A DNA stretch of 64,000 nucleotides, taken from Bilabrum cf. latius (lineage: Eukaryota). Numbering within the stretch: position 1 is the first letter of the stretch; each line of letters opens with the position of its first letter. The stretch lies in assembly GCA_965178125.1 (NCBI GenBank), contig OZ237754.1, forward strand, positions 434,001 through 498,000, written 5' to 3'. Shown here piece by piece: positions 1-64,000 of this stretch. The position numbers and the translations under genes were made by a program. Under the pieces are notes generated by a model. The model saw only the letters and a program-made list of their open reading frames with translations, was not told the origin of the DNA and did no database searches.

Positions 1-3000
1 ACTGCGAGTTGGCCGAATCCATCGGCTGCACTTCGGCACCAACAGCCTCAGCTGACGTGCATCCGAAGACGTCCACGGTGTGAAGGCCCACGCGATCGTG
101 GCTGCCGCTCTCCCTAGAGTTCCGGGTCACGATGCGGACAAAACGCCCAATCGGTGCCGAATCCAGCTTGGTGACCGGATCCACGGTGGACAGCAGGAAG
201 TCCGAGGCGGCCTCACCGGACGTACTCTCGTGCCCAGTCACCCAGGCCGACCCGTCGCGAGAGACGTCGATCCTGTAGTACCCAGGCCTGGTGTCCCACC
301 ACTGCACGCGCACGCGCGACACGGCCGCCTGCTGGTGCAGGTCAACGGTGAATACCTGCTGGTTGGAGGCACCCTGCGTGGAGCGAGAGCCAGACACCCA
401 GCGGGTGTTGTCGTTGCCATCCAAGGCGCGGTGGGGCTGATGGTCAGGGTTGGACCACGAGGACGTGGCGGTGGCGGTGGCCGGCGTGCCGGGGCCGCTC
501 AGGAGCTGACCGTTCCCGCATGTGCCGGGTGCAGCCGCCACTGGCACTGCCCTGGGCCTGTGGAGCACGACATCGCACACTCCCTGGGCGTCCACCGAGG
601 GCAGGCGTGCGGTGGCCGACTCTTCAGAGGGCATCCTGTACTTGATGACTAGACGCGGCGCGACCTTGTCGCCCTTCATGCCGTCGCCGTCCGTGTCCAC
701 GTTGGCAGCACCAGAGTAGAACACCCTGCGGGACTCCTGTGCCCTTCCCCGAGCCTCGGCGAGCGGGTCGTCATCCTGCCCCTCTTCGCCTTCCGATTCG
801 CCCTGTGCGGCAGCGGCATTGGCGAGCGCGATCTCAGTGGCAAGCCCAGGGTAGTCCTCGGGTTCGAACCCCTCGAGATCCATGGGTTCAGAGCCGAGCA
901 CTTCCTGGGCGCCCTGCAGCACGCTGAGCTCCTCGTCGGTCAGCTCGGCAGCGCGCAGCACGAACGGGAATGCCACGGTGGGCGCTGCATCGGCCTCGGT
1001 GCGTTCCGGCATCTGCTGGGCAACTGAGGGGCTCCAGGGCCAGGACTCGGAGCTGATATGCTTCTGCACCAGGTGCGCGATGTTGGGCGAGCGGTAGGAC
1101 TGCCCCTGGGCCTTGAAGCGGTCGAACATCCATGCCACGGGGCTGGCCCCAAAGTAGGCGGCGCTGCTGTTCATGGCGTCACTTATCGCGCCATTGCTCA
1201 GGTCGCAGACGTGACCCTGGGCGCACCCGGGGGTGCCAGTCAGCGTGCCAATCTCGAACTTAATGTCACCGTCAGCGCCGATGCCCTGCGAAGCGCTCAC
1301 CTCAATGTACGCCTCCGTGATGGTGGCACCACGCGGGATGTTGCCTGCCGGGGTGATTAGCACGTCAGAGTCCGCGCCGCCGGAGCGCATGGACTCGAGG
1401 GACTCTTCGTCGGCGGCGATAGCCGAGCGGAAAGTGAAGAGTGCGTTGCTGCCGTACTTCATGTCGATTGTCTCTCCCACCACCCGAAGCGGCTCGTTTG
1501 AAAGCCTAGGCGTCTCGACCATGTCTGCGTACTGCCCGCCCACGAGGGGCAGCTCCACCTCGACCTCCGTCTCTGGCATGCGAGCGGCATCGATGGTGGG
1601 CAGAAGTGCGCACACCACAGCCGTGCCCGAGTCGACCTCGCTGCGCAGGTTTTGGCTCACGTTGGCAGCAGCTTCGATGACAGACACCTCGTTGGACCGC
1701 ACAGGCTGGCACGGCACGCCGCACACGTCTAGAGTGAAGTCGTCCTCGTCATTGCCGTTGTAATTCGCGTCCTGGTTGGGGAGGCCCTCGCCGCGAACCC
1801 ACACGTGCACGCCACCGTACACGTCAGCCTGGAGGGCTACCTTCTGAACGGGCAGCACCTGGCCAGACACGACCACCTGCACTCCGGGCGCCACGGTTGC
1901 GACTCGGCCGCCGACCGCCACGTACAAGGCATGTCGGCCCACAGTTAGAGGAGGCACGGTGCAGGCGATGGCCTTGCCGTCCCCGCTGATGCTAGGAGAC
2001 TTACAGGACTGCCCGCCGATCGTGGCGACAAGCTGCTCCCCGTCACCCAGTGCGAACCGAGCCCCAATGACGCTGATCTCGTCTCCAGGACGCACGGAGT
2101 CCTCGCCGTTGGTATCGATCGATCGAACCACGGGCGTGGCATCGTCCGAAGCTGTGAACGTGTGCGCGAATCCGCTGTTGCTCTCGTCGTCGGTGCCCTG
2201 CACGGAGCCCGTGCCACGGAACCTGTAGGACACACCGAGGCGGCCGCTGGAAGGCGCAGTGCCATGGCCATAGCTCCTCTCGTTCTCAGCAACCTCTTCC
2301 GTAGTAGCGTTCATTTCTCCGGCCGCGACACTGGCTGCCATCTTGGTGGGAAGCGCGTCGTCGGCACCGATGCGCCCGAAGAACGAGAGCTCGGCGTTCC
2401 TGAAAGACGCGCCTCCGCCGGAGCTGGGGTTCACGTTCCAGGCAAACAGACCGGCAGTGCCGCGGTGCATGTCCCTGGTGGCACCCTCCTCCGGGATCTG
2501 GTAGCTGCCGGCGTCCCTTCCCTCCACGCGGAAGTGGACCTTCCCATCGATGGCTGACAGCGCCAGGTTGAAGTAGGACGGCGGCACCCAGTGGAAGCTG
2601 GCGCCGGCGACAGCGGTGTGTACGCCCTCCTGCACCCGGTACAGCACCGCGCAGCGCTGCTGGCGGTTGTACGTGCCGACAAAGTAGTTGTCCTGGGACG
2701 ACCACAACCCAACGAGCCCGACCACGCCGGACGGACCGACGCGCGCCTGGGTCTTGACCTCGTACTCGCCCATAGAGCGGCGCACCCAGCCGTTGTTGCT
2801 GAACAGCAGCGCGCTTCCCTTCATTGGCGTCCAGGCAGCGAGTTCCTCGGGGGTAGACACGGTGCAGTAGGACGCAGAGTACTGCTCAGACAGGGCCTGC
2901 GCTCCGTCAGCCACCCGGCTCACGGGAGACACGGTGCCAGCGGCCGAATCAGTGGAGAAGTCTCCGTTGCCGCTGCTCGCGATCCTGACAGAGACGGCCT

Positions 3001-6000
3001 GCATGGGCGAGTTGCTGCCCAGCGCGGGGAAGTTCCTCGACACCGGGTCGAACGCAAGCCCCTGGAACGTGGCCCTGGGAACGCACCTCAGGCTGGAGGG
3101 GTTGCTTGCGTCGGAGTCCACCGGGCACTCTTCCCCGCCTACGTAAAGCCTGTCGCCGTCCGCACGCGATCCACGGAAACCCGAGCCATCCACCACAACG
3201 GCAGAAGCAGCGGCAGAGCCACCCAGTGAGCCAGTAATCGGAGCCACAGAATCCATCGACACTGCGTACTCGAACGAGGCGAAGCCGCGCGCAAGTCCGG
3301 CTGCGGTGCTGACGCGAACAGTGCGGGGGCCGAAGCCAGCGGCCACAGTGCACTGCACGATACTGCCGTTGACGATTGCGTCCACGGGGCAGTCGATGGG
3401 AGCGTCCTCCTCGGCCTCAAGAGAGACGGTCACGTCCTGGGCGGAAGCACCCTGGGGCAAGTTTGCGACGGTAAGCGACAGCATGTCGCCATCTGCGCCC
3501 ATGGAGGGCACCGCAGTCGCCGACATGCGCGGAGTCGCCGCCTCAGAGAACGCGACGGTGCACCCACCCTCGCAGTCGCTGGTGGCCACCAGTTCGTCGT
3601 CGCCATCCACGCCCGAGCGCCACGTGACGGTCACAGCAGCAGCCTCGTCGGCGCCAGTGGACCTCCTCATGAGCATGCAGACCAGGCGGGTGGCAGTGGG
3701 GGCATCGCTGCCTTCCGTCTGCACCGCGCAGCTCGTGCCGCCGACAGAAACCTGGTGCCAGCTGCCACTCTCAGCTGAGGTGTCGAAGCCGAGACCAGAG
3801 ATCACCACGCGTGCGCCACCAGCCATGGAGAGCGCAGAAGGCGACACGGACGTCACGCTAGGCCGAGCAGTCACCAGCAGGGCAGCATCCTTGTCAGCTG
3901 CCTGGAATTCACTCGTCCACGCCTCGGCAGAACCCACCCCGGACACGCTGGCACTGATCACATTGTGTCCAACGGCACCGGCGGCCGTCCGGCACACGAA
4001 ACCCTCGGCATCGATCGAGTCGGTGTCCACGCTGCACTCGTACCCAGCCAGCATGGCCTTGGCTCCACGGGTCTGGTCGAAGCCAGCCCCACTGACGGTG
4101 ACGTCTTCGCCGGCGTGAATCTCGGCGGCACCGTTGCCAGTGCCATTCTGCACGGCCACGATCACGGGTGTAGAGGGCAGGGCAAGCGAGGACTCGTACA
4201 TGCAAGTCGAGTCGGTGGTGCACGGCACGGGCACATTGTCCACGAGCACCTGCACTTCCACGCCGAAGGGCGCGGCCACGGTAGCCAGATCATGAATCTG
4301 CGCAGCCGACAAGGGCATTTGGAACACACCGGCCTCGTCCATCGTGACGCGAGCCTCGGCGAGACCGTGCTCCATGTCATCGGCCACGAACAGCACGCTG
4401 GCGCCGTTCGCAGTGCTACCGACCAGGCGGCGAAGGGGCGCGATAGGTCCGACGGCCATCTGGCAGTCCACCTCGTTCTGGTCGCCTGGGAAGCACACGT
4501 CGTTGGCCAGGAACTCAGAGCTCGACAGGCTCACAGTTGCCACCTCGGCACCGTTGATGAAGAGACGAGCAACACCGTTGCCGTACGTGCCGGCCACGTG
4601 AGTCCATACGCCGGTCGCGAGCGTCTCTGAGGCAGTCGCAGCAACGAAGCCAGTGGCGTTGGCAGAGCGCTCGGCCGCGTTGTCCCCCTGGCACAGGGCG
4701 GCGGGGCTGAAGTCGAAGCCCTCCGGCAAGTCGTTCACAACCTGCCCCTGGCGAGCCAGCCTGAACTCGAGCTTGCCGCAGGCAGTTACTCCCAGCGCGT
4801 ACCCCGTCGGCACGCTCGGCTGGTTGAAGCCTCCGAGCCTGGTGCCCACGGACCTGATGATGTCGATGCCCCTAGCAGACGGCACAGCGGCGTCGAGCTT
4901 GACCCAGGTGGCGACCGAGAAGCCGCCCCACTGGGGGTTTGCCTTGGGTGAGTGGCCGGCACGCACGGCTGCGGGCTGCCTGTTGCTGAAAGAGGGATCC
5001 ACAAGGAACTCTGTGTCCAGCAGCTGCTCAGAGGTAGGCCTCTGCCTCCTGACAAACTGAAGGGCTCCGTTGCCGGTCGCCGCGAACGCGCCCATGACCA
5101 CCTTCGACCCTGAAGACGACGCTGTCTCGCTGTCGCCCATGGTGTACGCGGGGCCCTGCCCTGCCCCAGTGGGGGCCTCAGAGCCATAAGAAAGGGCGAC
5201 GATCTGCTGCGAGGTCATGGCAGTGTGGCCAGGGTCCATGGACCAGTACATGAGCGCGCCGCCGTCGAGGAAGGACTCGCGGCGGGTTGGCATGGGGTTC
5301 ACCACGGACGGCGCAGTGAACGCGACGCCATCGTCGGTCCACGAACCCTCCTCCACAGTTGCACTGGCCCAAGGTCGTACTCCCTCAATCGCGAAGGGCG
5401 CATCTGTAGCGCTGCCGTACCACTTCCAGCCAAGGGCACCGTCGCGAGGAGCCACGGGGCGCACGCGCACAGAAATGGTCGACACGTTGGTGCCACGGCC
5501 AGCCAGCCCCTGGCCGGCCAGCTGCACGCGTGCGCCGCCGTGCACGGATGCGGGCGTAGTCGCCGACAGTCCGGACATCTGGCTCACCTCGAGCAGAGCA
5601 TCGAATCGAAGGCCGCCCTGCGCTCCAGAATCAGCGTCCACGACTCCGTCGTTGTTGATATCCACGCCAGCCGTGCCCTTGTCAGATACGATCACGTCGA
5701 CACGAAGGGACCCGGCCCTGCTGGCCGCCCTCGTGATGCAGCGCACCTCCATCTCGTCTGCGTACGTGGTGCGGCAGCCGGTCACGATGTCCTCTCCGTT
5801 CGGACCAGCGCCGTCGGCCACGAGCTGCACTTGGACGTCGCTGTTAAGCGTGCTGGCAGGGGCGAGGCCGCGCCCAGTGATAGACAGCTCGATGCCGCCC
5901 GCGGCGGAGCCCTGCGGCGGGCTCACCGCCGAGATCAACGGGGTGGCCTCGGCGGTCAGCCGGATGGACCTCGTGATCTCGGTGGTGTCGAAGTCACCGG

Positions 6001-9000
6001 CGTCTCCCTCGCTGGCCTCGAGAGACCGGAGCGAGGCCAGGCGACGGGCAGCCGTGGCATTGCCGGTCTGGTTGGCGGCAGCGGCTGCCGCATCATCCCG
6101 CGCCTGCTGCTCGATCAAATCTGCCTCTAGGATGCTGGATGGCGTCACCCACGCGCTGTCCCTGGAGCCGACCTTGGCGATGCTGAGCACGATGGTGGCG
6201 TCAATCTCGGCGTTGCCGCCGGCCTGGGCGGCAACGATGGCAGAGTCGAGCACTGGCAGGCGGACCTTCAGCTCACCATACTCGGCAGAAACGACCTCAG
6301 CGGTTGCGGAGGAGATGCCAGTGGCGAGAGCGAATCGGATCTCGGCAGTCACACCGGCGCCCTCCTCGCTGCCAGGCAGCACGCCTCCACGAAGGCCGCG
6401 ACCGGTCATGGTCACCAGCGTGCCTCCAGCCAGCGAACCAGTGGCGGTTGAGCCGGTCACCTCGGACAGCAGCGAGAAGCTGAGGTCGGTACCAGCTGCA
6501 ACGCCTGCAGCTCCGCGGGCTCCGGCGATCACGCCGACCCCTGCGCCTGCCACTGCAGCAGCGGCGGCAGCAGCATCCTCATCAGCCGGCTCCGAGGTTA
6601 GGGTGCAGACGATCTCGGTGTTTGAGGCGGACGTGACATCGCACCGGAACGGTCCAATGGCAGTGCGGATACCAGACGCAAGCTCGCCCTCCGCAAGCAG
6701 GTTGCTGCCCCCGATTGTGATGGAATCGCCAGCGGCCGCGCTGGCAGGCGACACCGACTCGATCACAGGGGTGGCACCTTCGCTAAGCCTGGCGTTGCAC
6801 CGGCCCTCGATGTCCCAGCCGCTGCAGTGGGCGTGCACGTCGTTCACAACGACGCTCACGGCACCGCTGTTGCCATCGGCGTCAAGGGGCACGGGGATGC
6901 GCAGGAAATCGCGCGGGATGGGGTCCCACTGCATGCGCCCAGTTTGCGTGGTGCGGACGCTGTGCCTTGCCTCGTTGCCTGTGAGGGACGACGAGTCCAC
7001 GCGCAGCAAGGGGACGTCACCGGCCCTGTTCTTGTACGTGACCGTGTACGTAGACCGGGCGCAGCCGCCCGAGAAGCCCACATCCACGTTGCCGCCGACC
7101 TTGCCGGTGGCGATGATGGCAGACCGCAGCGCACCACCGGAGGCGCTGTGCGGCAGGCTGGCCCAAGGAGACCCGTCGAAGCTGATCCGGAAGCTGCCGC
7201 CGCGCGGCTGCCCGGACTCCTACACCACCTCGGCGGCAGAGCCGCCCTCGAGCACGTTGAAAGACTCCTCCACCTGGGGCTCCTGGCCGGGGGCTTCCCC
7301 ACCAGTCTCGGCGGCGGCGGCGGCTCCCGCCCCTCCGTCGTCGGGCTGAATGAGCATGCGCTGCACGGTGATGCCGTTGCTGCCCTGCTCAACGGGCACA
7401 ACCCTGGCAGACAGAGCCGTGTGAAGGTTGCAGTCGTACGTCTGGAGCTCGATCGACACGGTGCGAGAGGGCAGCAGGCCGTCGCCCTCGGTCACGAAGC
7501 TGCTACCCTCGGGGGCGGGGAGCGGCGTGGCCGGCACCATCTCGTTCGCGCGCACGGTCGCCACGCTCACACCGGAGTCCGGCGAGCCGCCCACGCCCAG
7601 CCTGAACCGCATCTCACGGAGAGACTACCTCATGTAGAAGGGCCGGTTGACGATGGCGAACTCATCGATCTGGAAGGGGCCCGAGTTGTACGGCGAGCTG
7701 CCTCCAGCGGTGTGCCAGATGACGGCGTTGATAGAGATGGCCCTGTCGCCCAGCACCTCCTTGATCTGCTCCTCGACGTTAATGCAGTCGTAGTACCACT
7801 TCCCGTCGGCCCTGCCGCCGATGCCCCAGTCGGCCACGCGCGGGTACGAGGGGCGGTCCAGCGGCTGGGTGAGCGTGATGCTCCTCCAGCTCGACACGTT
7901 CGTGTCGATGAGCATGTTTACATGAGTGCCTGCGGGGATGCGCCACGCCATGCACATGAACGGGAACTTGGACACGTCGTAACCACCGCTGGATTGGCCA
8001 GACTCAAGACCGGATCCGCGCTCGAAGTTGCGGCCCCAGCCGCTGCTCATGTGTAGCCCCTTCTTGCCGCAGAACGCCCGGTTCTCGATGGTGGGGTTGG
8101 CACTGTTGCGGAAATGCCAGTCGTCCGAGGACTGCTCGAACGTGTCTCTGTCGTAAAACTTGGTGCCGGCCTGGTCGTCGCGGAAGTAGACCTCGTCGCA
8201 CTCCGCTTCGTTCAGCGTCTCCGCCACGGCGGCAGCGATCTGGCTGGCGGAAGCACCGACCGCCAGGGGTCCTGACGTCTTCTTGGCCACCACGGTGGCG
8301 TTGGGCTCCGCGGCACCTGGCGTGGTGGGGTCGTACGTCGGATCGTCGCTGGCCCTGTGCACAGTGGCAAACTCGATGGCGAACTCGCCCTGCACGCGCA
8401 CCTCGCCCTGGTTCATGGCGATGTTCTCGGCACGGGCCTTGGGCAGCGTGATAGCGTGCTTCTCGAACTGGTTGGTAGCCTCAACCACCAGCTCTTGCTT
8501 CTCGTTCCTGCTGTAGCCGGGTGCCTGGCTCTCGGTCAGGTGCGTGTCAAAGTGCAGGAGACCAACCTTGAAGAAATCGTTGCTAGTGCCATCCTTGTGG
8601 AAGAGCTCCATGAAGTACGTCTCGTTGGCCTTCATGCTGTACCTCGGGGTCCAGCTGCCGGAGCCCCTGAAGGGCTTGTCCGCGGCAATCTCCATGCCAT
8701 TGCGGTGGAAGACCTCAGAGTCGCTGCTCTGGGCGGGACCGATCCGCAGCTGCACGTCGTCGTCCCCGTCGATGAAAAAGCCATACTCTCCGTCGTGCTG
8801 CGGCTGGAACAGCGCCATGCCGCGCTGCAGGAAGTAGTCCTGGCTCTGCCGCGTGTTCTCGAAGCCGGCCTTGTGGGACAGCGCGTCGTACCCTCCGGGC
8901 TGCTGGACTCGGTTCCAGTCGGGGCGGTTGCCCATGCTCCCCGTCTGCCCCATGTTGTCGTATCTCTCGACGCGGGCGCCGGCGGGGCCCATCACGTAGA

Positions 9001-9940: not shown

Positions 9941-10769
9941 CGCTGCGATGTCTGTTTTCGTAATTTTTCGTTGCTGTTGAAGTCAAACTTATTGGCCTTC
10001 TCTGTTGCGGTTCGGCCTTGGCTCCTGTCGGCGCCACTTCCTGCGAAAACCATGCAGGGACAGAGAATGGAGGCCACTCGTAGCTGGCAACTTTAAGCAT
10101 TCTAGCCAACAGCAGGAGGGAGAGACAAAAACCAAACGCGTTCATCGCAACCGCGAGACTGCATACTTCGTTCGCAGGCGGCTGTTCCGAGCATGCATGT
10201 CGGAATCTACCATGCACTATATATCTTTATCAATAGTCAGGCATTCAAAAATTAAATCTGGTGCGTACGTCAAAAGGACGCGCCTGATGCAACAAAGCTG
10301 ACGCGGCCGCAGGTGCTCCCGGAGGGAAAGGTAACCGAGCTTGAGCGGAGCGATTGTCATGAGATGACAAACTGCAACAACTAGGATTACCATGCAACTC
10401 AAGCTGGGTTCAGAATGGTGGCAACCGAACACCTGTACGCAAGGTTGCTCGCGCTACTTCCAAACCGCCAAAGGCAGCACGGGATGCTCTGATCTTCCAC
10501 GCGGCACACCCCTCATAGTTTTATAATACTATGAAGCTCACAATTCTCGTTGTCTTGCGGCGAGCCTGATTTCAAGCTCAGCAGCGCAAGGAAGAAACTC
10601 GTATGCAACAGCATTCTCCCCGGCGCGTCGCATTTGTTTGTCGTTGGTTTGTCGCTCTTTCAGCGTCATTTTGGTCGCAAATGGCCAAAAGTACGATTTG
10701 CGATAGTTGCGAACAGTTTGGGTTTGCTTCGGCTGCCATTCGCTCCAACTGTAGGCCACACGCTCAGCC

Positions 10770-53400: not shown

Positions 53401-55112
53401 TCTTGCTGCTGCTACCGCTGCTGAAAGGCGTGCTAGGACCATGCTCCACTATCGCCCGCGTGGCCGCGACCGGCCGCCGCGATCTGTTTCGCTCGAGCAG
53501 CAGCAGCCAGTGCCACACGCCTGGCTGACGAGTGCACAACGGCATCACTGCGCGACCGTCGCCTCTGCTGCTGAGGCGACTGAGCGTGTCGGGGCGGGGG
53601 CGGGGGCGGAGGCGGCACTCCGCGCTGGTGCGATGGGCTGGAAAGGGCCTACTCAGACACGCCACGGGTGGCTAGATTGCTGAGACCCGGCACAGAGCTG
53701 ACTCGCAAAATCCCGCGGCCTCTCCCTGGTCGCTGCGGTCGCCGAAGCAAGCTGTGAGGCGCCTCGTGGTTTCCTGGCTCCTGAGGAGAATCGCAATTAG
53801 CTAGTGCCGAGCCAAGCTCCGCATGCTAGAATGTAGCTGTAGCTACGGCTTCAACGGCAGAGTCATGCGGGCCGCTGTTCCCATTCAGTACGGTGCCTGC
53901 GCGTGCAGGCGGTTCCACCGGCACCTGGCTGGCATCCGCAGGGGCTTCTCGGTGGGCTGGATCGCTGTTTCCGGAGCTTTCACCACGCACCGCAAGGCTC
54001 CCTTCCTGCGCCTACTAATTTCTATCGTCAGCGCAGCCTTGCTCCTGTGGCGCCGGGGCTTCGTCCCTGTCAAGCTCTCTGAGGCCAGCCAGAACGTCGC
54101 CGTCCAGGAGTTGCTCGTCCACCCCGAGATCACGCAAAACTCGCTGGATCTCCGCAGTTGCACCGGCACTGCCACCATCCGCACCGAATGAACCCTGCGA
54201 TACTTTTCTTATTCGTTCTACCGCCTCTGAATCAGTGTGGTCTTGTCTGTCTCTCGTGCTGCCTTGCCTAGTCGACGAAAGCTTTGTGGGCGATGGCGAG
54301 GCAGACTAGCGCCCGCTTCTCGCACCAAGATTGGAAGTGTTGCCGTCTGCTCCAGGGATTCCAGAGCACTCTCCGTTTTCAATGCTGGCCGCGATAACTC
54401 CGAGGTAGGGCATCGACGTCAGCAACCTTTGGCGGCCTTGCTCGCGGTCATGCCTGCTATCAGCGTCACTGTTCGTGCTATTCTAATCTAAATCATCCGA
54501 AAATGCGCTAGATCTCGTATCACTAGCTCCTGAGGTTCCAGTAAACTGCGACTCGCTGCGAGCTCCACCAGTCGATCGACTCATACCAGTGCTCACAGTA
54601 CCGGTAGTGCCGTTTCGATACCGGCGGCGTCTCTATAATTGTCTGGCTTGTCGTAGTGCCCGGCGGACGGCCCCTTTGCCCCAGTCTAGACGGCTAGCTG
54701 TTCGATCGGGCTCTTGGGTTCCTGAAGCGGACTTCTCAGATTTGGCACGCGCGTTCGCTGCCTTCACAATGGCAGCCGCAGCCGCTGCTGCAGCCGCAGC
54801 CTATCTACTGGGAGTATATGAACCAGATGCTGGCCTGGCCCGGCTGGCTTCTGACCCAGGACTGGAAATTGCTGCAAACGAAGTCGGCAGTGCCGGTGGC
54901 CTCGCCAAGCCAGAACCCGTAGCTGTTGCAGAGCTACCTTGCCTACTTGCGGTTCCGTTTTCCTCAGATGCATTGGAAACATCCGGTAGCCCTGCACCGC
55001 CTAACTACGAATATACTGTCGCTGCTCCAGGCACTCGTAGCAGCCAAGCGACGGCACTATCCCATCCACTGCGAGATCTGTGCCCCCCGCGATCATCTCC
55101 CTCTCCATCCAT
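47421..55112 (-). CDS. Very large (2563 aa) mostly low-complexity protein with a C-terminal SPRY domain split by insertions; about 26 TAGs
   Basis: ORF-track pieces 55005, 53433, 53019, 52410, 51696, 51474, 50520, 49161, 48228 and 47793 are one frame with only TAG interruptions from ATG 55112 to TGA 47421. SPRY motifs: FRSARAALSVP..SYFEVTF, AAVGLS..GQVG..SIGLSSSG..GYSVGDTVGVLV and LTFSVNG..LFPTVSL. Confidence 0.86.
51334..51447. repeat. In-frame 57-bp tandem duplication (GIDSADESQPGV[V/A]DP) inside the SPRY protein gene
   Basis: GGATCC(G/A)CAACACCAGGTTGGCTCTCATCAGCACTGTCAATGCC at 51334 and 51391. Confidence 0.9.
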
Positions 55113-55353
55113 TGCAGTTTTGTATGAAAGAATGGGCGACCCAACGATGCGTCGGAGCCTGGGGCTGTATGAGCTGGTGAATGCTGCGAAGAAACCGATC
55201 GCGCAGCGACTGGCGGGTTCCGCAAACCAGTGGCTCTCTCTCTGATGATGGCATGCGCATATCAATCCTAAACTTTACAATCTTATAACTGACTCATAGC
55301 TCATTGCATCCAAACGAGTCATAGTCACGCCAACCACCTTCGCTCGCCTGAAA

Positions 55354-58300
55354 TCAAGACGCCTGCTGCAGTAGCTCAGCCTTGCGAGCAACCGGCAGGA
55401 GCAGTCTGGAGGCCTCCTTCATCGCGCGCAATCCTCCACTTTCCACCTCTCCGCCTGCAGCATCATGACTCGCGGGAATGGGAATCACGATAGCGTCGTA
55501 CCCTGCCGCTCGGATGGCTTGCTGCCACCCCGCTGCCCACCTCGGGGGCACCCACCGCAGATCTGACCCACTTGCATGCTGTGAATCCATCGCGGGCTCG
55601 CTTGCATCCTTCTCGCTGACTTCAATCTCTCTCTCACCGGGATGGCTGCTCTTACCTGCGCCCACATCCTGACCGAAGGACCTCACATGCACACCAAACA
55701 TGGGGTCGTCTGCCTGCTCAAGTGCCTTCGACTGCCCGTCGATTGAAGTCTCTCTCACCCATGTCCCCGCAGACGCTGGACACGTCCTCACAACGACTCT
55801 CAAGCCGGGCCACCCGGCCACGGTGCCGAAGTCCAGCTTCATGTCGCTTTCGATACGACTTGCTCGCGCTCTGTCCTCCTCACCAGCCCCATGCCCCTGC
55901 CTCCTAGCATGGGCATGCTTTCGGACATCAGAATCCAAAGTGGCCTATGCCATCGAAAGCCTCGAGTTGCCATTGCTACCGATTAATGGGCCGCCCTCCA
56001 CAGACCCGAGTGCAGCAGACGAGCCCATCTCATCTCCTTCACCCCAAGCACCGCCCAGCTCCGCCTCCAGACTCAAGTCCACCAGCACTCTCCCCTGAAT
56101 AGTCCAAGCGCTGACGAAGGAATTGCGAAGCTCATGCAGGCCAGCACGGCAATCCTAAGCATCGTGCGCTGAATCACCGCGCACACCAGACGCACTGCCA
56201 ATGAACGCCTCAAGCAGCGAGGGAACATCGTCCGGCAAGCCAGGACTGTCTAATCCGCTTTCGGAAGGACTACGAGCCAAATCTTCTGACCTAGTCTCCA
56301 AACTTCGTCGGTCCGGCCTCTCCGACCACTGGTCAAACCAAAACGCATCGCCAGAAGGAGTGGGTACGTCGGATCCATCTGAAGCTCCGCGCGTACCAAA
56401 GGCTGCCCCGGGCCTCGTTGGTAGGTGCAGCAGCCGCATTGGCGACCTTGCAGATCGCCACTGCTGGCTGACCCTCATCTCAAGCCCAGCAAGCCTATCC
56501 TGCGCGTTGCCACCCGGTACTGCCATGCTCCAATCTGTGTCGCCGAGCTGGCTATCATCAAGGCCGCCCCAGCCATCTTCTGTACCTGCCTCCAAATGAG
56601 AGTGCAGGCCGGTCTCGCCGACAGCCTCGTGTCCGTGGCTGGACCTGGCGCTAGACTCACCCTTCCGCCTAGCTATTTCCTGCGCGAACGGAAGATCCAG
56701 CGGCAGAACATCGCAGAGAGTCGGGACCGGCCCTTCTGCGGGAAGCTGCTACTGCAGGCATGCCGCTGCCACCGCAAGATACTCGTCGAGCGCGTTGCAC
56801 ATCTACCCGGTTCCGCTTGACCCTACCTGCTGGGTACATGCCTCGACGGCCGCACCGACTGCCGCCCTGTCCCCAGAGGAAGATTGCAAATCGCGTCGGC
56901 TGCTAAGCAGCTCCTGCCCTGCCCTCATGACCGCTTCGTCCACAAGCCGAAGGCGACCCGGACTCAGAGCTCCAGCCCAGTAGAGAACCGCGGCTGATCG
57001 CAGAATTGACACGATGACATCGATCGAGGAGTCATGCGAGCCTGCGGTGTCGTCGCGACTGGATGCGATGGAGCTGGTGCTCCCAACTCCAGTCGGCACA
57101 GTGCTGCCCGCTACACCGACGGCATCGGCGCACCATGCATCCATCACCGATACTGCCCTCTTGACGCGGGCGCGGACGGACGAGTCAGCTTCGTCTGTGT
57201 TACCAGCTACCGCAATCGCAAGGAGGCACTGCTTGATTCTGTCCTGCTCCTGCTCTTGCTCTTGTTCTTGCTATTCATGGCTACTGACGCCAGCAGTGGA
57301 ATGCTGCCTGGATGACTGCTGGCCAAAGGGAGCCACCTCCCGCCGGAAGAGACCTGGTGGTTTCGGCAACAGCGCCATCTGAATGAAATGTGAAGCCTCC
57401 GGTGGAGCTTGTCTACCCAAAGCCACGAGTGTGAGCATCGTGACCGCCAGTTCCTTCCTGTATGCATCGGAAGCGCCAGCTACTGTTCGCCCACTTGCGC
57501 TAGCACCGCCCAGCTATGCTTCGCTGCCTCCTCCGAAGCGCCTGAGCAATAATACAGTCAAGTCGCAACCAGAGTGCGATAGCCGGGCCCCTGTCGTAGA
57601 CGCACGCAGCACATGCAGCAACGATGTATCAGTAGCAGCGGTATCAGGGGTGAGAGCGACGGCTGCATCGAGCAACGCCTGGTGTGCTGCCAGCCGATTG
57701 CTCAGGCTTGCGTCTATCCAGCCAAGTGGAATGTCACCACCACTCGAATCTCCGTTCTGCAATTCAAAAGCATCTAGTAGGCCCACGCAAGCTGCAGACT
57801 CAGCACCTTGCGCGAGCAAGGCTGCCAGAACACCGGCGTCCTTGCCAGCTGCTAGCCTTTCCGATGCAATGCGGCCTTGCATCGAAGCAACAAATCGCAC
57901 TAGCTGTCTCGCCGTCGCAAGCAGTGCTCGCAGCCTGCTCGCTCCGGGTTGCTACAGCACCAGCCGTAGCCCAATCGGACTACTGCCGCCAGTTGCGTCG
58001 GTCCAAGAGTCGTGATCGCCAGAGAAGAACTGCTGCTCGACGTGCCTTGCTCTGGAGACCAGCACATCGGCAACTGATTTTGCCAGAGCTCGGGTGCCAA
58101 TGAGACACGCAGACGCGGCTGCTAGCTGCTCAACCTCCAGCGAGGGCGCGCTGTCATTCGCAATGCCATCGATCTATGGCTCATCAGTCGAGCTGACCGG
58201 TTCATCTACCACAACCTCGCTGTCGGGAGTCGCATCGCAGGAGGAGCCGAAATTTCCTCGAATCTACATGCACTGCTCGGAAAGAACCAACAATACATCG

Positions 58301-59220
58301 GTCGCATTGCGAAGAGGCAAGGTCAGGGCAGTCTTCATGGCTAGGCTGCCTTCACTGCCAGCAACTCTAGCCTCTATATCATCTTCAAAGCGCGTACGGC
58401 CTTGTTTTGTTGCATGCAAGTGGTGCATAGCCTCTTCGGCCGCAGCTTCGGACAGAGACGCTGCCAAAGTCACTCCGCCACACAGCGCCTCGAGCCCTGC
58501 ATTGCGCTCCGCACGATTGCGCGATTCCAGTGCGAGGCGAAGCAGCTGGCCGTGCCCATGGAGGACCACAGAAAGACCGTCAAGAACCACCGCAGCTTGC
58601 GACATTTCATTGCTTCTGGCATTGCCACGTGGTCGAGTCCGAGACAGAAAAGATGACAGCACAGCAGTAAGCGTGCCAGGCGTTCGTACCGATCCAGAGT
58701 TTGAATCAAAAGTCGCAATATTGTACGGGCACAAATCTACTGCAATTCTGGGAACGACTGATCCTATGAACAAAGCCGCGGCGGTACGCTTTTCATCTTG
58801 CTGCGAATGGCCGCACAGGTCCTAGTCTACTTGGCACACCCCTGCTGCCCAGCCTCGCACGGCTCTAGCATCGGCAAAGCTTAGGTCTCGCCGGATCCCA
58901 CACCGCACCACACTAGCGTCGCTACTCTTCAAGATGACAAAGGATGCACGCACCATTGCGCGGAGTACAGCAGCTGAATCAGTAGCCTGCCCGCTTTGCA
59001 GCGCTTTTGCAGCCTATAGAAGCATATGCACAGCAGGAGACCCCTCTTGTGGCTGCATGCTTTGTACATGTTGATGTATCGACCGCCCGAATGGCCACAA
59101 AATCAACCGTGGCTGGCAACAATTGGCCTGCAGAGACTATTCAGCGAGCCACAGCCTTGTCATCCTCAAGCAAGACAGTGGACCCCTGGCCTTCTTGACC
59201 AACGCCACGCGAATCATCAT
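55354..59220 (-). CDS. Hypothetical 1288-aa helical protein, probably mitochondrial, with RAP-like C-terminus; about 12 TAGs
   Basis: ORF pieces 58264, 57514, 56803, 56155 and 55354 are one frame joined by TAGs. Basic N-terminus MMIRVALVKKARGPLSCLRMTRLW; C-terminal GRVLVDLSL..FGVHVRSFG..QQAIRAAGYDAIVIP resembles a RAP domain (weak call); TGA stop. Confidence 0.8.
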
Positions 59221-59425
59221 TACAAAAATGGGTTTGAATGAGACCAGTTGCACATTCGAAAAGCGAGATGTGGGCTCATTTCTGCTGCCAGTGGTATCGA
59301 TTCCGGTTCAAAATGTACGTCCATTGAATTTCGTAGCACACACCATTCACTTGTGCTAAGTCTCCGGTGGAAGCAGGCAAATCGAGTTCGAAGTACTTTT
59401 GTAGTGGATTTAAGAGCATATAAGC

Positions 59426-62400
59426 ATGGTGGAGAGTGCGCCAGAAGCGACTGTTTTGGTGCAACTTCGGCAGGGAGAATTGGCGAACATCGGTAGTCAA
59501 ATCCTTGGTAGGCTGAGCGATTTGGCGGCTGCACCAGGAAGCGATAAGCCCAAGAAGAAAAAATTAGTGAGGCCGACTTCCGAAGGCGCTACGGGTGTTT
59601 CAAAGAGCGCTGTCGAGCGAAATCGAGTAGCCGCCGCCTTGGCGCTCGCCCTGCCTTGCCAATCAGAAAGACTGCCAGAGCCGTTTCGGTCCCGCTTGAA
59701 AGGTGTCGAATATCTTTATGATTGTATTTGTGCACGAGAACCACGCTCAGCTGAGGCTGGCAGTGCGAAAGAGGGATCTACACTGGATCGCTACGAAGGT
59801 ATCATGCTTCGACTGGGAATCTAGAAGGCTCCTGATCGGATCGTCAAGTTTGTAGAGGAGATTCTGCAAGCAAATGGTAGCATTTTGCTCATGTATAGTA
59901 CCACTGAGCCGTCCTCATCTGATAGCGACGGCGACTCAGACGCCGACAACAAGTTTGGTTCCGCCGCAGACGGTGGCACGGGGAAGAGAATGCGAGAGTC
60001 CGTCTAGAAGCAGATTGGACCATCCGCTGGCAGCACCGGCAGTTATGGTGGCATCGATGATGGTAACAGCTCAGACGGGATGAAAGTGAATCTCAAGAAG
60101 GCGCGGCGAGGAAGCAGCAACGGTGCACGACAAGCTGCTGCAATCGCCTCGGCCGGCGAAGCTGCAAGTGGGCCCTCGGGGGCAGCCGGCCGGCGCACAC
60201 GCAATCAAACTCGGCAGTCTGGTGCCACCCTCTGGGGCCTTACTGGCGGCGTGCCGACCGCACTTGTCAACCGAGCACGGGCTGCCAGGCAAGCCAGCCG
60301 GGCGCAAAAGAAAGGCCCTGCTGAGGTGATCGAGCTGAGCGACAGCGACAGCGACAGCGATGCGATCGAGGTTGTGACTGGAGGGTCGCAGCCAGCAGGG
60401 GCCGGCCAGAGCGCTCCCTTTGAAATCGACAGCGACGGGGAAGGCATTGCCGCACACCCGGGTTCGAGCGGCGGTGTGTCTGCAAAAAAGTCCAAGAAGA
60501 GAAAGAAGAAGCTCATGCCGTTTAAGCATCACCCTTCGAGTCTTACTGCCGCTAGACTGGTCGAGTCGATACCAGACTTACCAGTAGAGCTAGAGAAGGC
60601 CCCACTTGAGCCCTTTGGTAAAGTAGTACCCGATAGCAGGACTGTCCAGAACGTCGATCCCTAGCTAGCAGCGCGAGCCATCCCGGACTCTAGGTGGTAT
60701 CACCGTAGCGATGACGCCGCTGATGCTCCCAAAACCATACTTCACAGACGCAAGGGCATTGCAACCGTTGTTTCGTGAGTTTTCGTTGCTTCTCGTTAAT
60801 GCACATTGCTGGCTCATTTCCACTTGAAATTGCTTTCGTCAAGCTTGCTAGATTCTTGTTGTCATCGCAGGAATGTTTTCATGCAGAAGACTAGCCCGGT
60901 AATATCTTCGTTTTATTCTCTGTCAGCATGCGGCTTCAACGCGATCGTCAGACCGTGGACTTGGGACCGGGACGAGGTCCGAAGTGCTGACGATGCAGGC
61001 GAACTGGACCCTCTGGACCCAAGTACCGCGCTGGGTGAAGGCAGTGGCGGGCAGGGGCCCCAAATTTCGCAGGCAAGCAGCGTGTCGTTGTCACCTTCTT
61101 CTTCATAGCCATCGAAGTCACCTGCAGGAAGTGCGCCGCTGGCCTAGTCCGCCAGCAGCTCGACTGCAGGAGCAGCTTCGCAGCCTTTGCCTGCTTGGCC
61201 ACTGACTTCCTCTGCTGCGCGAGCTAGCAGGCTTCAGTGTCGATCTGGTTAGCCCGGCCTTGCGTATGCTGGAGGCATCGCAGTACAGCATGATCCGAAT
61301 GAGACTGCGACTTTGACGACAAGCATTCAAGCGTGCCAAGAGCTTATGAGTAATACTGCACCGCCAGTCAGGGCCGTTCCAGAGATTAAGCAGCTTACCA
61401 CTGTACTAGCCGCCATGCTGCTGTCACCTGGACCCCACTCAGGTGCAGACAAGCGATGTGCGGCGCTTGCCGATCGGCTCCAACGAGATGGGCTCTTGGG
61501 ATAGGACACGTCCTCGCCGCTGCGGAAGCTGCTGAATGCATATAAGGCATCCAAGAACGGCGAACAGCCGGCAAGGGAGCCTACAAACACGTAGCAAGTG
61601 GTGTACTTGGGAAGCAACGACGTGACCTCTGGAGACCGTGTGTTTTGGAAGTTCCCGGCACAGCAGTTTTCTCCGTCGATCGAGATGATACCTAGCACGC
61701 TAGAGAGGCTCAGCCCGGGATCATGGCTGTGGGACTCCAGCGTCGACTTCGGACTGTGGTACGCTTCGCTCATGGAGTTTCCAGCCGCGCTGCGAAGACG
61801 GACTGCCCTGGTCACGACTCTCTGGAACCGGACTCGCCAGGCACGCGACCAGGAGGACAGGGCAAAACGCAACGCAGCCATACGGCGCCGTCGTGCAGAA
61901 TCCAAACGGCGGACGAATGCGGCTAAAAGGGAAGGGCAGAAATTCCCAAGCGCTGCAGCAAGGCGCCCGCCTGCTGTGACGAGCGGTAGGGCTATTCACC
62001 ACAAGGTCAAGGGCAAGGCCAGCATGGTAGTCAACAGTACCAAGCAGCAGTCTACGATGAGAACCTCAGCTGAAACGGTTTGGGAACCGGAGGCGTCAAT
62101 GACTGCACCCGTCATGTAGCGCAAGAAGCGCCCGGATGCTGTTCCGGCCTTAAGATCAGCAAACCCTCCCTCTACGGGGATAGGCATGTCATCAAGAATT
62201 GCGAATCGCAAACGCGACGAAGAGCGCGGCGCTGGAACGTTGCCCACATTGCAGGGAATGCAAGAACCGAAGTTGAAGCCCAGGCATGCAGAGCAGTAGA
62301 GAGCCACTCCAGCGAATGGAGGCTTGGGCTAGGCCTTCGACTCTAGCAGCAGCCGTCACGAGAGGAAGGCGGACCCGTCATCCAACCGCCGCAGGAACAC

Positions 62401-64000
62401 TAAGCCTGATCGGCGTGGTACTCACGGCGGTGGTGGAAATCGTCGCAAGAACCGCGGAAGTTCCAACGGGCACGGTCGAAGTCGTGGCAGGGGCGGAGGG
62501 CGGGGCCGTGGGTACGGGTCGAGAGCGAAATCAAGAAGACACGAGAGGCACTAGAGGCACGCGCTCTTTGACGAAGTGACTCGGAGTGCAGCGGCGAGCA
62601 GCAGCTCGAGTCACATCGATGCTCCGCTTAAGTCTCCGCGTGCAGGGCGTAAGCACCAGCAGCAGGAGCAGCCGAAACACCATCGCGAGACAAAGGCCCA
62701 GAGAGCCGATGTACTTGCGAGCGACGACTTATCAAGCCACCCGGACCACCAGCCAAGGGCGTCCACGTCACAAAGAGACAAAACGAGTTTCGACGGACAA
62801 GTAAAGCAGTACAGTGCTATGTCAAAGCAGGATCGCGATGTTAGAAGTCCAGGTCGCACGTCGATGGGTTCTGCTAGGAGCTCTTAGGATGGGCAGCAGC
62901 ATAAGGAGCGTCTTGGGTAGCAACCAATGTCAGCGCAACTCGCTGCCACATCCTTTCGGTTGGATGTGGCAACGCATGCGAGCCAGCGTAAGCCCGAGGC
63001 TCGGGCGCGGTCTCCAAGTGACAGCGATTTTGGAGTTGGATCGAACGAGGATGAGTTGCTTGGGCGCTAGTCCTCCCGGGCCGGGACCCTGATTCCTAGG
63101 CCGTCTGCGTCGGACCCCCCTTCCAATGCAAGAGCACGCGGAGCTTCAGAAGGCTTGCAGGGAAGCAATCGCCCGCGACCCTCAGCCTCCCAACCCTCCG
63201 TTTCGAACTCTCTCATGAATCTCAGTCAGAAGCCCGCATCGAGTATCGCGGCTGGCAAGCGCAGTAGCAGCATTGGTGGCGCCAGCAAGAGTTCTGGGCA
63301 GGTCCCGATGGGAGATGATGACGATGTTGATGCTCCTACAGCGACCATGCCCTCCACTAGGGTGAAGCAAGGCGCTGCTGGCGCGGAACGAGTTGCCTTG
63401 GGGAGCGTTCCAATGGACGGTGGACCAGTATCTGGGTCGGATGATGTGTATTCCTCGCCTGCTCGAAGACCTCAACGTGCCCGCAGACCAGCCTCGCAAG
63501 CGATTGCAGTGGAAGGTTCTAGTGAATCTGACGAGGACTTGCCAGATGTGGTCACATCTCCTTCTCGTGCTGCCAAGGGCAGGGCGGCAAGCCCGTCCCC
63601 ACCCAAGCTAGCTCACGGCAAGGGCAAGCGCAGCAATCAGAGTGCGAAAGCTGGCAAGGCCTCCCCTGGCAAGAGGAAGAAGAGAAACAGACCTACTGCC
63701 CGCGTCAATCCCTTGAAAGCAGAGCCTGTCGGCTGTCAGCACCCAGGTAAGCCCGCGCTGAAGAACCGCATGATGAAACGCACCTTCTACAAGGTCGACA
63801 GTGTCAGGCGCTTCATTCGCACCGCGGAGCACAGGCATCACGTGAATCTCACAGCTCTTGGAACAGATGCATGGGAGCAGAAGCAGTCGTTTGATCCTAC
63901 TGAAGCTATGGCCCAAGCCCACGCCGAGAAGATTGAGCCTGAACCTGAAAGCGAGGAGGATGACGCAGTGCCCGAGGCGCTTGACATCGTGAAAACGTTT
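59426..64000 (+). CDS. Ulp2/SENP6-7-like SUMO protease (peptidase C48) candidate, 3'-partial; join(59426..60774,60871..>64000); about 15 TAGs
   Basis: SUMO-interacting-type motif EVIELSDSDSDSDAIEVV, basic NLS-like KKSKKRKKK and a C48-like domain start SIEMIPSTLERLSPGSWLWDSSVDFGLWY. The frame is open to the window end except for TAGs. The catalytic His/Asp/Cys residues are not seen in the window. Confidence 0.75.
60775..60870 (+). other. Spliceosomal intron (96 nt)
   Basis: GTGAGT donor and ATCGCAG acceptor; T-rich and contains the only in-frame TGA and TAA in this reading frame. Confidence 0.88.

What the first reader, a model, noticed from the sequence alone, without database searches (positions are those of the whole stretch)
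1..64000. Non-standard nuclear genetic code: UAG is a sense codon for glutamine throughout the window
Seen: all 17 reconstructed genes on both strands are interrupted in frame only by TAG (about 130 by manual count), never by TAA or TGA. The protein continues without frameshift or splice signals, and catalytic motifs are intact. Established: UAG=Gln with UAA not reassigned (the table-15-type pattern) is rare in eukaryotic nuclei, reported for example in the fornicate Iotanema and a few ciliates; most stop-to-Gln codes reassign UAA and UAG together. Inference: this GC-rich genome looks like neither a ciliate nor a fornicate and resembles a Cafeteria-like stramenopile, a group where I know of no such nuclear code. 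It may therefore be an independent, undescribed reassignment. It predicts a tRNA-Gln(CUA) and an eRF1 that ignores UAG.
Basis: partly seen in the sequence, partly recalled or inferred. Interest (0 to 1): 0.97.

Follow-up and report, generated by a model that had tools for sequence, protein, structure and literature searches.

The report
UAG read as glutamine, nuclear genes
This GC-rich eukaryotic chromosome piece reads the stop codon UAG as the amino acid glutamine in all of its genes and ends them with UGA, a rare kind of genetic-code change whose host lineage could not be identified here.

Summary
Reading TAG through turns fragmented ORFs into 17 long genes on both strands. From each first ATG I count 127 in-frame TAG, 0 TAA and 0 TGA in 18,757 codons.

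TAG behaves like a glutamine codon. Gln is the commonest residue in 3 of 12 alignable TAG columns, against 11 of 46 CAG/CAA columns and 22 of 1,837 other columns. A Codetta-like score ranks Gln first.

The TAGs are not assembly errors, edited or spliced out. Contigs of two other runs carry GT..AG splice joints that the DNA-like run lacks, and they cover 39 of 40 and 18 of 40 TAG codons with no differences.

"UAA not reassigned" is only half shown. TAA is never a sense codon, but it is also never a terminator: 15 of 15 complete genes end in TGA.

The predicted tRNA-Gln(CUA) and altered eRF1 could not be tested, because no genome is held and the window has no tRNA. The lineage, including the "Cafeteria-like stramenopile" guess, is unresolved.

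UAG-only-to-Gln codes are already known from Iotanema and some ciliates. This is best filed as a probable new member of a known kind.

The parts
2..9982 (-). Giant secreted-type protein (7 TIG/IPT stretches, Laminin_G_3, F5/8 type C). The ORF runs off the window start. It has 2 in-frame TAG against 113 CAG, and GC3 is 0.81.
10527..13515 (+). Alpha-N-acetylglucosaminidase (NAGLU) gene. Exon 1 ends at 11276, the intron is 11277-11415 (GTAAGT..CAG), and exon 2 is 11416-13515. It has 2 TAG after the first ATG and ends in TGA.
13516..16191 (+). Cationic amino-acid permease (CAT1-like), first ATG at 13789. It has 3 TAG inside the permease domain, at variable columns, and ends in TGA.
16445..19132 (-). 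Gene of unknown family with 7 in-frame TAG; ends in TGA.
19162..23160 (+). Gene of unknown family with 17 in-frame TAG. The last TAG (codon 1332) sits directly before the terminal TGA.
23236..24588 (+). TatD/TATDN1-type nuclease with 3 TAG near the N-terminus; ends in TGA. An 86%-identical predicted protein from another source (P0139) starts at the Met just after the third TAG.
25441..29496 (-). Gene of unknown family with 13 TAG after the first ATG; ends in TGA. Two introns in the 5' leader (29368-29464 and 29540-29855, GT..AG on the minus strand) are removed in contigs of runs X5 and X7.
29567..32185 (+). RCC1-repeat protein. Its single TAG (codon 328, 'AIxVTCG') lies at the blade position that is CAA-Gln in two sister blades and Gln in HERC1.
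32392..34710 (-). Gene with no Pfam match and 15 TAG (against 9 CAG and 13 CAA). In pairwise BLAST, TAG codon 410 aligns to Gln in 4 of 4 relatives that cover it. Ends in TGA.
35094..38675 (-). Carnitine/choline acyltransferase with long inserts and 6 TAG. Codons 126 and 917 align to Gln in 9 of 10 and 10 of 10 homologues, and to Gln in mouse carnitine acetyltransferase chains. Ends in TGA.
38969..40798 (+). EF-hand plus mitochondrial-carrier protein with 2 TAG after the first ATG; ends in TGA.
41204..42802 (-). Josephin (ataxin-3-like) protein with 2 TAG in the Josephin domain, at variable columns; ends in TGA. One RNA contig spans 41174-42798.
43654..45783 (+). Gene with no Pfam match. It has three 5' introns (43414-43583, 43675-43774, 43812-43899; GT..AG). 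Its single genomic-frame TAG (43795-43797) is out of frame after splicing. Ends in TGA.
47421..55274 (-). Low-complexity gene of 2617 codons with 26 TAG, several inside Gln-rich runs; ends in TGA.
55354..59307 (-). Gene of unknown family with 12 TAG; ends in TGA.
59414..60778 (+). Gene of unknown family with 3 TAG; ends in TGA.
60800..64000 (+). Gene of unknown family with 12 TAG; runs off the window end.

Best explanation
The window is nuclear DNA of a GC-rich (61%), intron-poor eukaryote whose cytoplasmic translation reads UAG as glutamine. About 15% of Gln codons are UAG. UGA is the terminator of every complete gene here, and UAA is absent from reading frames in both roles.

Shown: TAG is a sense codon, its columns are Gln-like, and it is retained in spliced RNA.

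Inferred from established knowledge of such codes (PMC5304391 passages): decoding is by a tRNA-Gln with anticodon CUA, one base away from the normal CUG, which pairs with UAG but not UAA, together with an eRF1 that no longer efficiently recognises UAG. TAG codons then arise mainly by C-to-T change of CAG.
For: - **ORF structure.** 7 ORFs of at least 1000 codons appear only when TAG is read through. In frame there are 127 TAG, 0 TAA and 0 TGA in 18,757 codons, while the off-frames hold all three.
- **Domains.** Pfam domains are continuous across TAGs in 8 genes.
- **Conserved Gln columns.** Acyltransferase codons 126 and 917 align to Gln in 9 of 10 and 10 of 10 homologues and in solved carnitine acetyltransferase chains. 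Codon 410 of the 32392-34710 gene aligns to Gln in 4 of 4 covering relatives. The RCC1 TAG aligns to Gln of HERC1 and to CAA-Gln in two sister blades.
- **All usable columns.** In 4 alignments filtered to under 70% identity, Gln ranks first over 12 TAG columns (log-odds +2.8; next is Met at -6.9). Resampling 12 columns of each ordinary codon recovered the true residue in 97% of trials on average.
- **Comparison with canonical Gln codons.** Gln is commonest in 3 of 12 TAG columns, 11 of 46 CAG/CAA columns and 22 of 1,837 other columns (Fisher P = 4e-4 against other codons, P = 1.0 against CAG/CAA).
- **Codon usage.** The TAG share of Gln codons per gene tracks the CAA share (Spearman rho 0.78, P = 1.5e-4) and falls with GC3 (rho -0.64). 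Many TAGs lie in Gln-rich runs.
- **RNA.** Contigs of runs X5 and X7 join across five GT..AG introns that run X1 keeps. Their listed pieces cover 39 of 40 and 18 of 40 in-CDS TAGs of 25441-45440 with 0 other letters.
- **Terminators.** 15 of 15 complete genes end in TGA.
Against: - Most alignable TAGs lie at variable columns: permease 160/173/227, Josephin 68/73, NAGLU 456 and TatD 11/52.
- At TatD 'DPxF' the column is Met in 104 of 120 homologues and never Gln. In the unfiltered permease set one TAG column is Pro in 105 of 120.
- The Gln log-odds total is only +2.8 and rests largely on 3 columns.
- The tool labels run X5 'RNA? (probably DNA)' and X7 'RNA?'. Their RNA nature is my inference from the splice joints.
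- No tRNA gene and no Rfam match occur in the window, and no genome is held. The proposed tRNA and eRF1 mechanism is therefore untested.
- Only 15 terminators were seen. Given that 78 of 435 background ORF ends (18%) are TAA, 0 of 15 has P of about 0.05.
Confidence: 0.87

Rival explanations
1. Both UAA and UAG encode glutamine (the common UAR-to-Gln code, NCBI table 6 type, as reported for Amoeboaphelidium protococcarum, hexamitin diplomonads and many ciliates). On this view TAA is simply rare because the genome is GC-rich.
For: No gene in the window ends in TAA, and UGA is the only terminator seen, as in UAR-to-Gln organisms. Passages of PMC11687900 say UAA and UAG nearly always change together.
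Against: There are 0 in-frame TAA in 18,757 codons against 127 TAG. A-ending codons are not rare (CAA 162 against CAG 560, AAA 111 against AAG 374), so about 37 TAA would be expected. Also reading TAA through barely lengthens any ORF: 2617 to 2665, 895 to 932 and 772 to 793 codons, all extensions at one ORF end only.
Confidence: 0.05
2. UAG has a dual, context-dependent meaning: Gln inside genes and stop near some mRNA ends. This is what is proposed for ambiguous codes in Condylostoma, karyorelicts, Blastocrithidia (UAA) and Amoebophrya sp. ex Karlodinium veneficum.
For: Two genes have a TAG 1 and 5 codons before the terminal TGA (19162-23160 and 25441-29496). ORF ends were defined by reading TAG through, so a terminal TAG would be missed by construction.
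Against: Near-terminal TAGs that can be aligned lie inside regions where homologues continue: acyltransferase codon 1156 is filled in 10 of 10 homologues, and codon 758 of the 32392-34710 gene lies within the P0134 alignment. The 86% relative of TatD ends at the same place as the window gene. About 0.5 genes with a TAG in the last 5 codons are expected by chance at the observed TAG density, so 2 of 15 is not significant. That arithmetic is mine, from the counts.
Confidence: 0.08
3. UAG is a sense codon for a residue other than Gln. Candidates are Leu (as in the rhizarian exLh), Ser (Scotinosphaera), Glu, Lys or Tyr (various ciliates).
For: Most TAG columns are variable. One is Met-dominated and one Pro-dominated.
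Against: Gln ranks first. Met, His, Asn, Ser and Lys follow at -6.9 to -12.3 nats, and every other residue, Leu and Glu included, ranks lower still. Four TAG positions sit at strongly Gln-conserved sites. TAG columns are statistically indistinguishable from CAG/CAA columns.
Confidence: 0.03
4. It is an artefact or a non-translated state: assembly or sequencing errors, TAG edited to CAG in RNA, TAGs removed by splicing, or pseudogenes.
For: None found. The runs are stored as contigs, which drop rare variants.
Against: Identical sequence is held by runs of 4 studies. Spliced contigs of two runs keep the TAGs with 0 differences. The only joints are canonical introns away from the TAGs. It is implausible that all 17 neighbouring genes are pseudogenes broken only by TAG.
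Confidence: 0.01

Closest known systems
Iotanema spirale (Fornicata) nuclear code: UAG = Gln, with UAA and UGA as stops (PMC5304391; abstract and passages seen)
   Same: Only UAG is reassigned, the residue is Gln, and UAA is not a sense codon. The predicted mechanism is a tRNA-Gln(CUA) derived from CUG plus eRF1 changes.
   Different: In Iotanema UAA is the primary terminator. Here 15 of 15 terminators are UGA and UAA is never seen. This organism encodes carnitine acyltransferase and mitochondrial carriers and is GC-rich, unlike what I would expect of an anaerobic fornicate. That last point is inference, not a test.
UAG-only-to-Gln codes in ciliates: Protocruzia tuzeti and two phyllopharyngean lineages (PMC11687900; passages seen). 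NCBI table 15 has the same formal assignment.
   Same: The formal code is the same: UAG = Gln and UAA is not Gln.
   Different: The window has 61% GC, long multi-kb genes on both strands and 88-316 nt GT..AG introns, which is unlike ciliate macronuclear DNA as I recall it. No ciliate marker was tested.
UAR-to-Gln codes (table 6 type): Amoeboaphelidium protococcarum, hexamitins, oxymonads, ulvophytes and many ciliates (PMC11687900, PMC5304391 and PMC6299283 passages)
   Same: UAG = Gln and UGA is the sole working terminator.
   Different: Those organisms also use UAA as Gln. Here there are 0 in-frame TAA where about 37 would be expected.
Ambiguous 'nonstop' code of Amoebophrya sp. ex Karlodinium veneficum (PMC12005148; abstract and passages seen)
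   Same: UAG is read as a sense codon, probably Gln. Introns are GT/AG. Like that host-grown parasite, this organism turns up in runs filed under other organism labels.
   Different: That genome is described as AT-rich, with in-frame stops 58% UAA, 32% UAG and 10% UGA. Here only TAG occurs in frame and GC is 61%.

Membership tests
UAG-only-to-Gln nuclear code (Iotanema type / NCBI table 15 assignment) | UAG occurs in frame inside conserved, expressed protein-coding genes | tested here: met
   127 in-frame TAG in 17 genes. Pfam domains are continuous across them, and they are retained in spliced contigs.
UAG-only-to-Gln nuclear code (Iotanema type / NCBI table 15 assignment) | UAG positions correspond to glutamine in homologues | tested here: met
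   Gln ranks first over 12 columns. Gln is commonest in 3 of 12 TAG columns, 11 of 46 CAG/CAA columns and 22 of 1,837 other columns. There is also the RCC1 blade site. Counter-example: one Met-dominated column.
UAG-only-to-Gln nuclear code (Iotanema type / NCBI table 15 assignment) | UAA is not a sense codon | tested here: met
   0 in-frame TAA in 18,757 codons, and reading TAA through does not merge ORFs.
UAG-only-to-Gln nuclear code (Iotanema type / NCBI table 15 assignment) | UAA is retained as a working terminator | tested here: inconclusive
   0 of 15 complete genes end in TAA. The background TAA share of ORF ends is 18%, giving P of about 0.05.
UAG-only-to-Gln nuclear code (Iotanema type / NCBI table 15 assignment) | UAG is no longer used as a terminator | tested here: inconclusive
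   Alignable near-terminal TAGs are internal to homologous regions. Two genes have a TAG 1 and 5 codons before the TGA.
UAG-only-to-Gln nuclear code (Iotanema type / NCBI table 15 assignment) | A tRNA-Gln with anticodon CUA and no tRNA with anticodon UUA | not testable with these tools
   No tRNA in the window (ARAGORN; Rfam) and no whole genome is held.
UAG-only-to-Gln nuclear code (Iotanema type / NCBI table 15 assignment) | eRF1 N-domain altered at stop-recognition motifs | not testable with these tools
UAR-to-Gln code (table 6 type) | UAA used in frame as Gln alongside UAG | tested here: not met
   0 TAA against 127 TAG in frame. About 37 would be expected from the CAA:CAG ratio.
Ambiguous / all-three-stops codes (Condylostoma, Blastocrithidia, Amoebophrya sp. 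Kv) | UGA and/or UAA also occur in frame as sense codons | tested here: not met
   0 in-frame TGA and 0 TAA, while the off-frames hold 682 TGA and 98 TAA.
UAG-to-Leu (rhizarian exLh) or other non-Gln UAG reassignments | UAG columns dominated by the alternative residue | tested here: not met
   After Gln (+2.8) the best alternatives are Met -6.9, His -9.0, Asn -10.6, Ser -11.0 and Lys -12.3. Leu and Glu rank lower still.

The most novel reading that the evidence does not exclude
This may be an independent, so far undescribed UAG-to-Gln reassignment in a GC-rich, aerobic, non-ciliate, non-fornicate eukaryote. A sister species about 86% identical in protein (P0139) would share it. In this reading UGA is the only functional terminator and UAA is effectively unassigned: neither decoded, for lack of a tRNA(UUA), nor used as a stop. 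That would be a one-stop code reached by a different route from the UAR-to-Gln codes. It could represent an intermediate state in which eRF1 has lost UAR recognition while only UAG has been captured.
Probability: 0.3. Interest if true: 0.85.

Novelty: new member of a known kind. Interest (0 to 1): 0.68.

Why it matters
Nuclear stop-codon reassignments are rare. Cases where UAG and UAA part company are rarer still. The passages I read name Iotanema, Protocruzia and two phyllopharyngean lineages for UAG-to-Gln, one rhizarian and some phyllopharyngean ciliates for UAG-to-Leu, and Scotinosphaera for UAG-to-Ser.

Another independent case would help in three ways:
- It comes from a GC-rich genome with DNA and transcript data already public, so the tRNA and eRF1 changes that uncouple UAG from UAA could be studied in a real genome.
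- It would test whether UAA can fall out of use altogether.
- It is a warning for annotation. Standard-code gene callers cut these genes at every TAG, as seen in the truncated database protein P0139 and the short fragmentary relatives P0131-P0136.

Tried and rejected
- **Whole genome.** None is held for this window, so no genome-wide codon inference, tRNA scan or eRF1 search was possible.
- **tRNA and RNA families.** ARAGORN and Rfam found nothing in the window.
- **Sequencing runs.** No listed holder is on record as RNA. I infer RNA origin for X5 and X7 only from their splice joints.
- **Relatives in metagenome contigs.** A TatD query gave 21 loci, none close (22-67% identity on the best segments). 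I could not compare TAG with CAG between species at the DNA level.
- **Lineage.**
  - Named homologues of the permease and TatD are mostly animals, at 34-46% identity.
  - The closest hits are unnamed.
  - A FastTree of 121 TatD rows puts the query and P0139 on a long branch with no supported neighbours.
- **Amoebophrya sp. ex K. veneficum as the source.** Rejected, because that genome is described as AT-rich with mostly UAA in frame.
- **Amoeboaphelidium-type code.** Not supported, because no TAA is in frame.
- **Literature.** Seven searches found no report of a UAG-only-to-Gln code outside Iotanema and ciliates. The library lacks most subscription journals and all supplements, so this is weak evidence that none is in print.
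- **Extra genes.** Intergenic ORFs of at least 80 codons (for example in 45784-47420) show no coding-like GC3 signal and were not counted as genes. The antisense ORF 23988-25088 has no Pfam match, overlaps the 3' part of TatD on the opposite strand, and was dropped.


Full report
**What the window is.** The 64 kb are 57-67% GC (61% overall from the base counts; profile). They contain no tRNA gene and no Rfam match. No whole genome is held for the window, so everything below rests on the window, on public protein collections and on contigs of public sequencing runs.

**The observation.**
- With the three standard stops there is one ORF of at least 1000 codons. With TAG read through there are seven (3327, 2617, 1351, 1332, 1317, 1193 and 1067 codons).
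- TAA plus TGA occur 1989 times in 128,000 positions on both strands, about one per 64 codons. Frames free of them for 1000-3300 codons are not chance.
- I delimited 18 ORF segments that make 17 genes on both strands.
- Counted from each first ATG, they hold 127 TAG, 0 TAA and 0 TGA in 18,757 codons. The two off-frames of the same DNA hold 140/129 TAG, 34/64 TAA and 307/375 TGA.
- TAG is therefore as frequent in frame as out of frame, while the other two stops are completely excluded.
- One of the 127 (43795-43797) drops out of frame once the introns seen in transcript contigs are removed.

**The genes are real.** Pfam finds the following:
- carnitine/choline acyltransferase (35094-38675, minus strand);
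- a cationic amino-acid permease (13516-16191);
- RCC1 repeats (29567-32185);
- an EF-hand mitochondrial carrier (38969-40798);
- Josephin (41204-42802, minus strand);
- NAGLU in two exons (10527-11276 and 11416-13515);
- TatD (23236-24588);
- a giant TIG/Laminin_G/F5-8C protein (2-9982, minus strand).

The domains run straight through TAG codons. The NAGLU exons are joined by a GTAAGT..CAG intron at 11277-11415, read directly from the sequence. The TGA at 11283 is therefore intronic, not a terminator.

**Which residue TAG encodes.** Four TAG positions fall on strongly conserved glutamines.
- Acyltransferase codons 126 (the 'HQ..LP.LPVP' entry motif) and 917 ('SPDA..Q.ALQ') align to Gln in solved mouse carnitine acetyltransferase chains. 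They also align to Gln in 9 of 10 and 10 of 10 database homologues.
- Codon 410 of the unknown gene at 32392-34710 aligns to Gln in 4 of 4 relatives that cover it in pairwise BLAST.
- The single TAG of the RCC1 protein ('AIxVTCG') aligns to Gln of HERC1. It also matches the blade position that is CAA-Gln in two sister blades of the same protein.

Taking every usable column gives the same answer.
- I used four alignments: permease with 120 homologues, acyltransferase with 10, TatD with 119 (leaving out the 86% relative, which does not cover the TAGs), and the unknown gene with 8. After filtering to under 70% identity, 17, 10, 51 and 8 rows remained.
- A Codetta-like sum of log-odds over 12 TAG columns ranks Gln first (+2.8). 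Met follows at -6.9, His at -9.0, Asn at -10.6, Ser at -11.0 and Lys at -12.3.
- As a control, 100 resamples of 12 columns for each of 55 ordinary codons recovered the true residue in 97% of trials on average.
- Gln is the commonest residue in 3 of 12 TAG columns, in 11 of 46 columns under the window's own CAG/CAA codons, and in 22 of 1,837 columns under all other codons.
- The mean Gln share is 0.26, 0.21 and 0.024 respectively (Fisher P = 4e-4 for TAG against other codons, P = 1.0 for TAG against CAG/CAA).
- TAG columns are thus indistinguishable from canonical Gln columns.

Against this reading:
- Most TAGs sit at variable positions.
- One (TatD 'DPxF') sits where 104 of 120 homologues have Met and none has Gln.
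- One permease TAG sits where 105 of 120 mostly vertebrate homologues have Pro.

**Codon usage fits a synonymous codon.**
- TAG makes up 127 of 849 Gln-type codons (560 CAG, 162 CAA).
- Its share per gene runs from under 2% in the GC3-rich giant gene (2 TAG against 113 CAG) to 40% in the gene at 32392-34710 (15 TAG, 9 CAG, 13 CAA).
- The share rises with the CAA share (Spearman rho 0.78, P = 1.5e-4) and falls with GC3 (rho -0.64).
- Many TAGs lie inside Gln-rich runs such as 'HxMQxRQQQR', 'QQRxQQQEQEQEQ' and 'SHExQEQEQEQEQ'.

**The TAGs are not an artefact, not edited and not spliced out.**
- Thirteen public runs hold part of the stretch. Four runs of one sample hold all sampled words, and runs filed under other coded organism labels and studies hold 27-84%.
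- I laid four of them on 25441-45440. Run X1 gives long collinear contigs of even depth.
- Runs X5 and X7, from different studies, give gene-sized contigs that join across five places with GT..AG ends on the strand of the gene. These are 29368-29464, 29540-29855, 43414-43583, 43675-43774 and 43812-43899. X1 has none of these joints.
- I take this as showing that X5 and X7 contain spliced transcripts. The tool itself labels them 'RNA? (probably DNA)' and 'RNA?', so this is my inference.
- Their listed pieces cover 39 of 40 (X5) and 18 of 40 (X7) in-CDS TAG codons of that stretch with zero differing letters.
- The only differing letters are six at 33811-33828. They come from a second contig that overlaps just 78 bases, and none is near a TAG.
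- Contigs can hide rare variants, so low-level editing is not excluded.

**Status of UAA.**
- TAA is not a sense codon. None is in frame, where about 37 would be expected if TAA:TAG followed CAA:CAG, and reading it through merges no genes.
- It is not seen as a terminator either. All 15 genes whose end lies in the window stop at TGA.
- Among 435 mostly spurious ORFs of at least 80 codons, 78 (18%) end in TAA. Zero of 15 therefore has a probability of about 0.05.
- The window cannot tell a rare stop from an unused codon.
- This differs from Iotanema, where UAA is the primary terminator (PMC5304391 abstract).

**A dual meaning of UAG is not excluded.**
- Two genes have a TAG 1 and 5 codons before the terminal TGA.
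- These could be former TAG stops now read through, chance, or real context-dependent stops.
- Where homologues exist, near-terminal TAGs lie inside aligned regions.

**Mechanism (inferred, not tested).** A sense UAG beside a non-sense UAA leaves one possible anticodon, CUA. It is one mutation away from the CUG of a normal tRNA-Gln, and release-factor changes are commonly thought to accompany such reassignments (PMC5304391 passages). Neither the tRNA nor eRF1 could be looked for here.

**Relatives and lineage.**
- One database protein (P0139, from a 4.7 kb contig) is 86% identical to the TatD protein. It begins exactly at the Met that follows the third TAG and lacks the conserved N-terminal segment.
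- That is what a standard-code gene caller would produce if the relative also carries an in-frame stop there. Its DNA could not be fetched.
- The relatives of the 32392-34710 protein are likewise short fragments.
- Other homologues are distant: 40-54% identity for unnamed metagenome proteins and at most about 46% for named ones, which are mostly animals.
- A metagenome scan gave no close locus, and a TatD tree is uninformative.

**Comparison with what is known.**
- By the passages I read, UAG-only-to-Gln is reported for Iotanema spirale, Protocruzia tuzeti and two phyllopharyngean ciliate lineages.
- UAG-to-Leu is reported for a rhizarian and for some phyllopharyngean ciliates, and UAG-to-Ser for Scotinosphaera (PMC11687900).
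- UAR-to-Gln codes, including Amoeboaphelidium protococcarum (PMC6299283 passage), also use UAA.
- Amoebophrya sp. ex K. veneficum is AT-rich and has all three stops in frame (PMC12005148).
- None of these matches a 61% GC genome with TAG-only sense codons and UGA-only terminators.
- Seven full-text searches found no such report. The library omits most subscription journals, and supplements were closed.

**Verdict.** 'UAA kept as stop' is unproven, the tRNA and eRF1 predictions are untested, and the lineage and therefore the novelty are open. I file it as a probable new member of a known kind of code. The unusual extra is that UGA is the only terminator seen.

Noticed in passing
window 23155-23160 (end of gene 19162-23160) and 25441-25458 (end of gene 25441-29496, minus strand): One gene ends ...TAG TGA, and another has a TAG five codons before its TGA. 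These may be former TAG terminators now read through to the next stop, or chance. About 0.5 such genes are expected among 15.
   Followed up: partly
window 33781-34021: A second contig overlaps only 33781-33858 and carries six clustered differences at 33811-33828. There is also a joint skipping 85 bases (33895-33979, ends TG..GA, so not an intron). The joint is present in the DNA-like run X1 and in X5; the differing contig is in X1, X5 and X7. This looks like an allelic or repeated variant inside the 32392-34710 gene.
   Followed up: no
P0139 against window 23395-24588: A predicted protein from another public contig is 86% identical to the TatD gene and starts at the Met right after the window's third TAG. 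This suggests that a related organism has the same code and is mis-annotated under the standard code.
   Followed up: partly
runs X1-X8 over window 35001-45000: Identical sequence is held by runs filed under four different coded organism labels and four studies. The organism therefore seems to occur in samples registered under other names (co-culture, symbiont, contaminant or metagenome). I did not try to identify them.
   Followed up: no
window 2-9982 against 32392-34710: TAG use differs more than 20-fold between genes: 2 TAG per 113 CAG at GC3 0.81, against 15 TAG per 9 CAG at GC3 0.63. It tracks local GC3 and CAA use.
   Followed up: yes
window 41174-42798: The transcript contig of the Josephin gene extends only about 30 bases past the TGA and about 11 bases before the first ATG. 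Neighbouring genes lie 20-300 bases apart, so the genome is very compact.
   Followed up: no
window 29368-29855: The gene at 25441-29496 has two introns (97 and 316 bases) upstream of its first ATG, that is, in the 5' leader. Most coding regions in the window are intron-free.
   Followed up: partly
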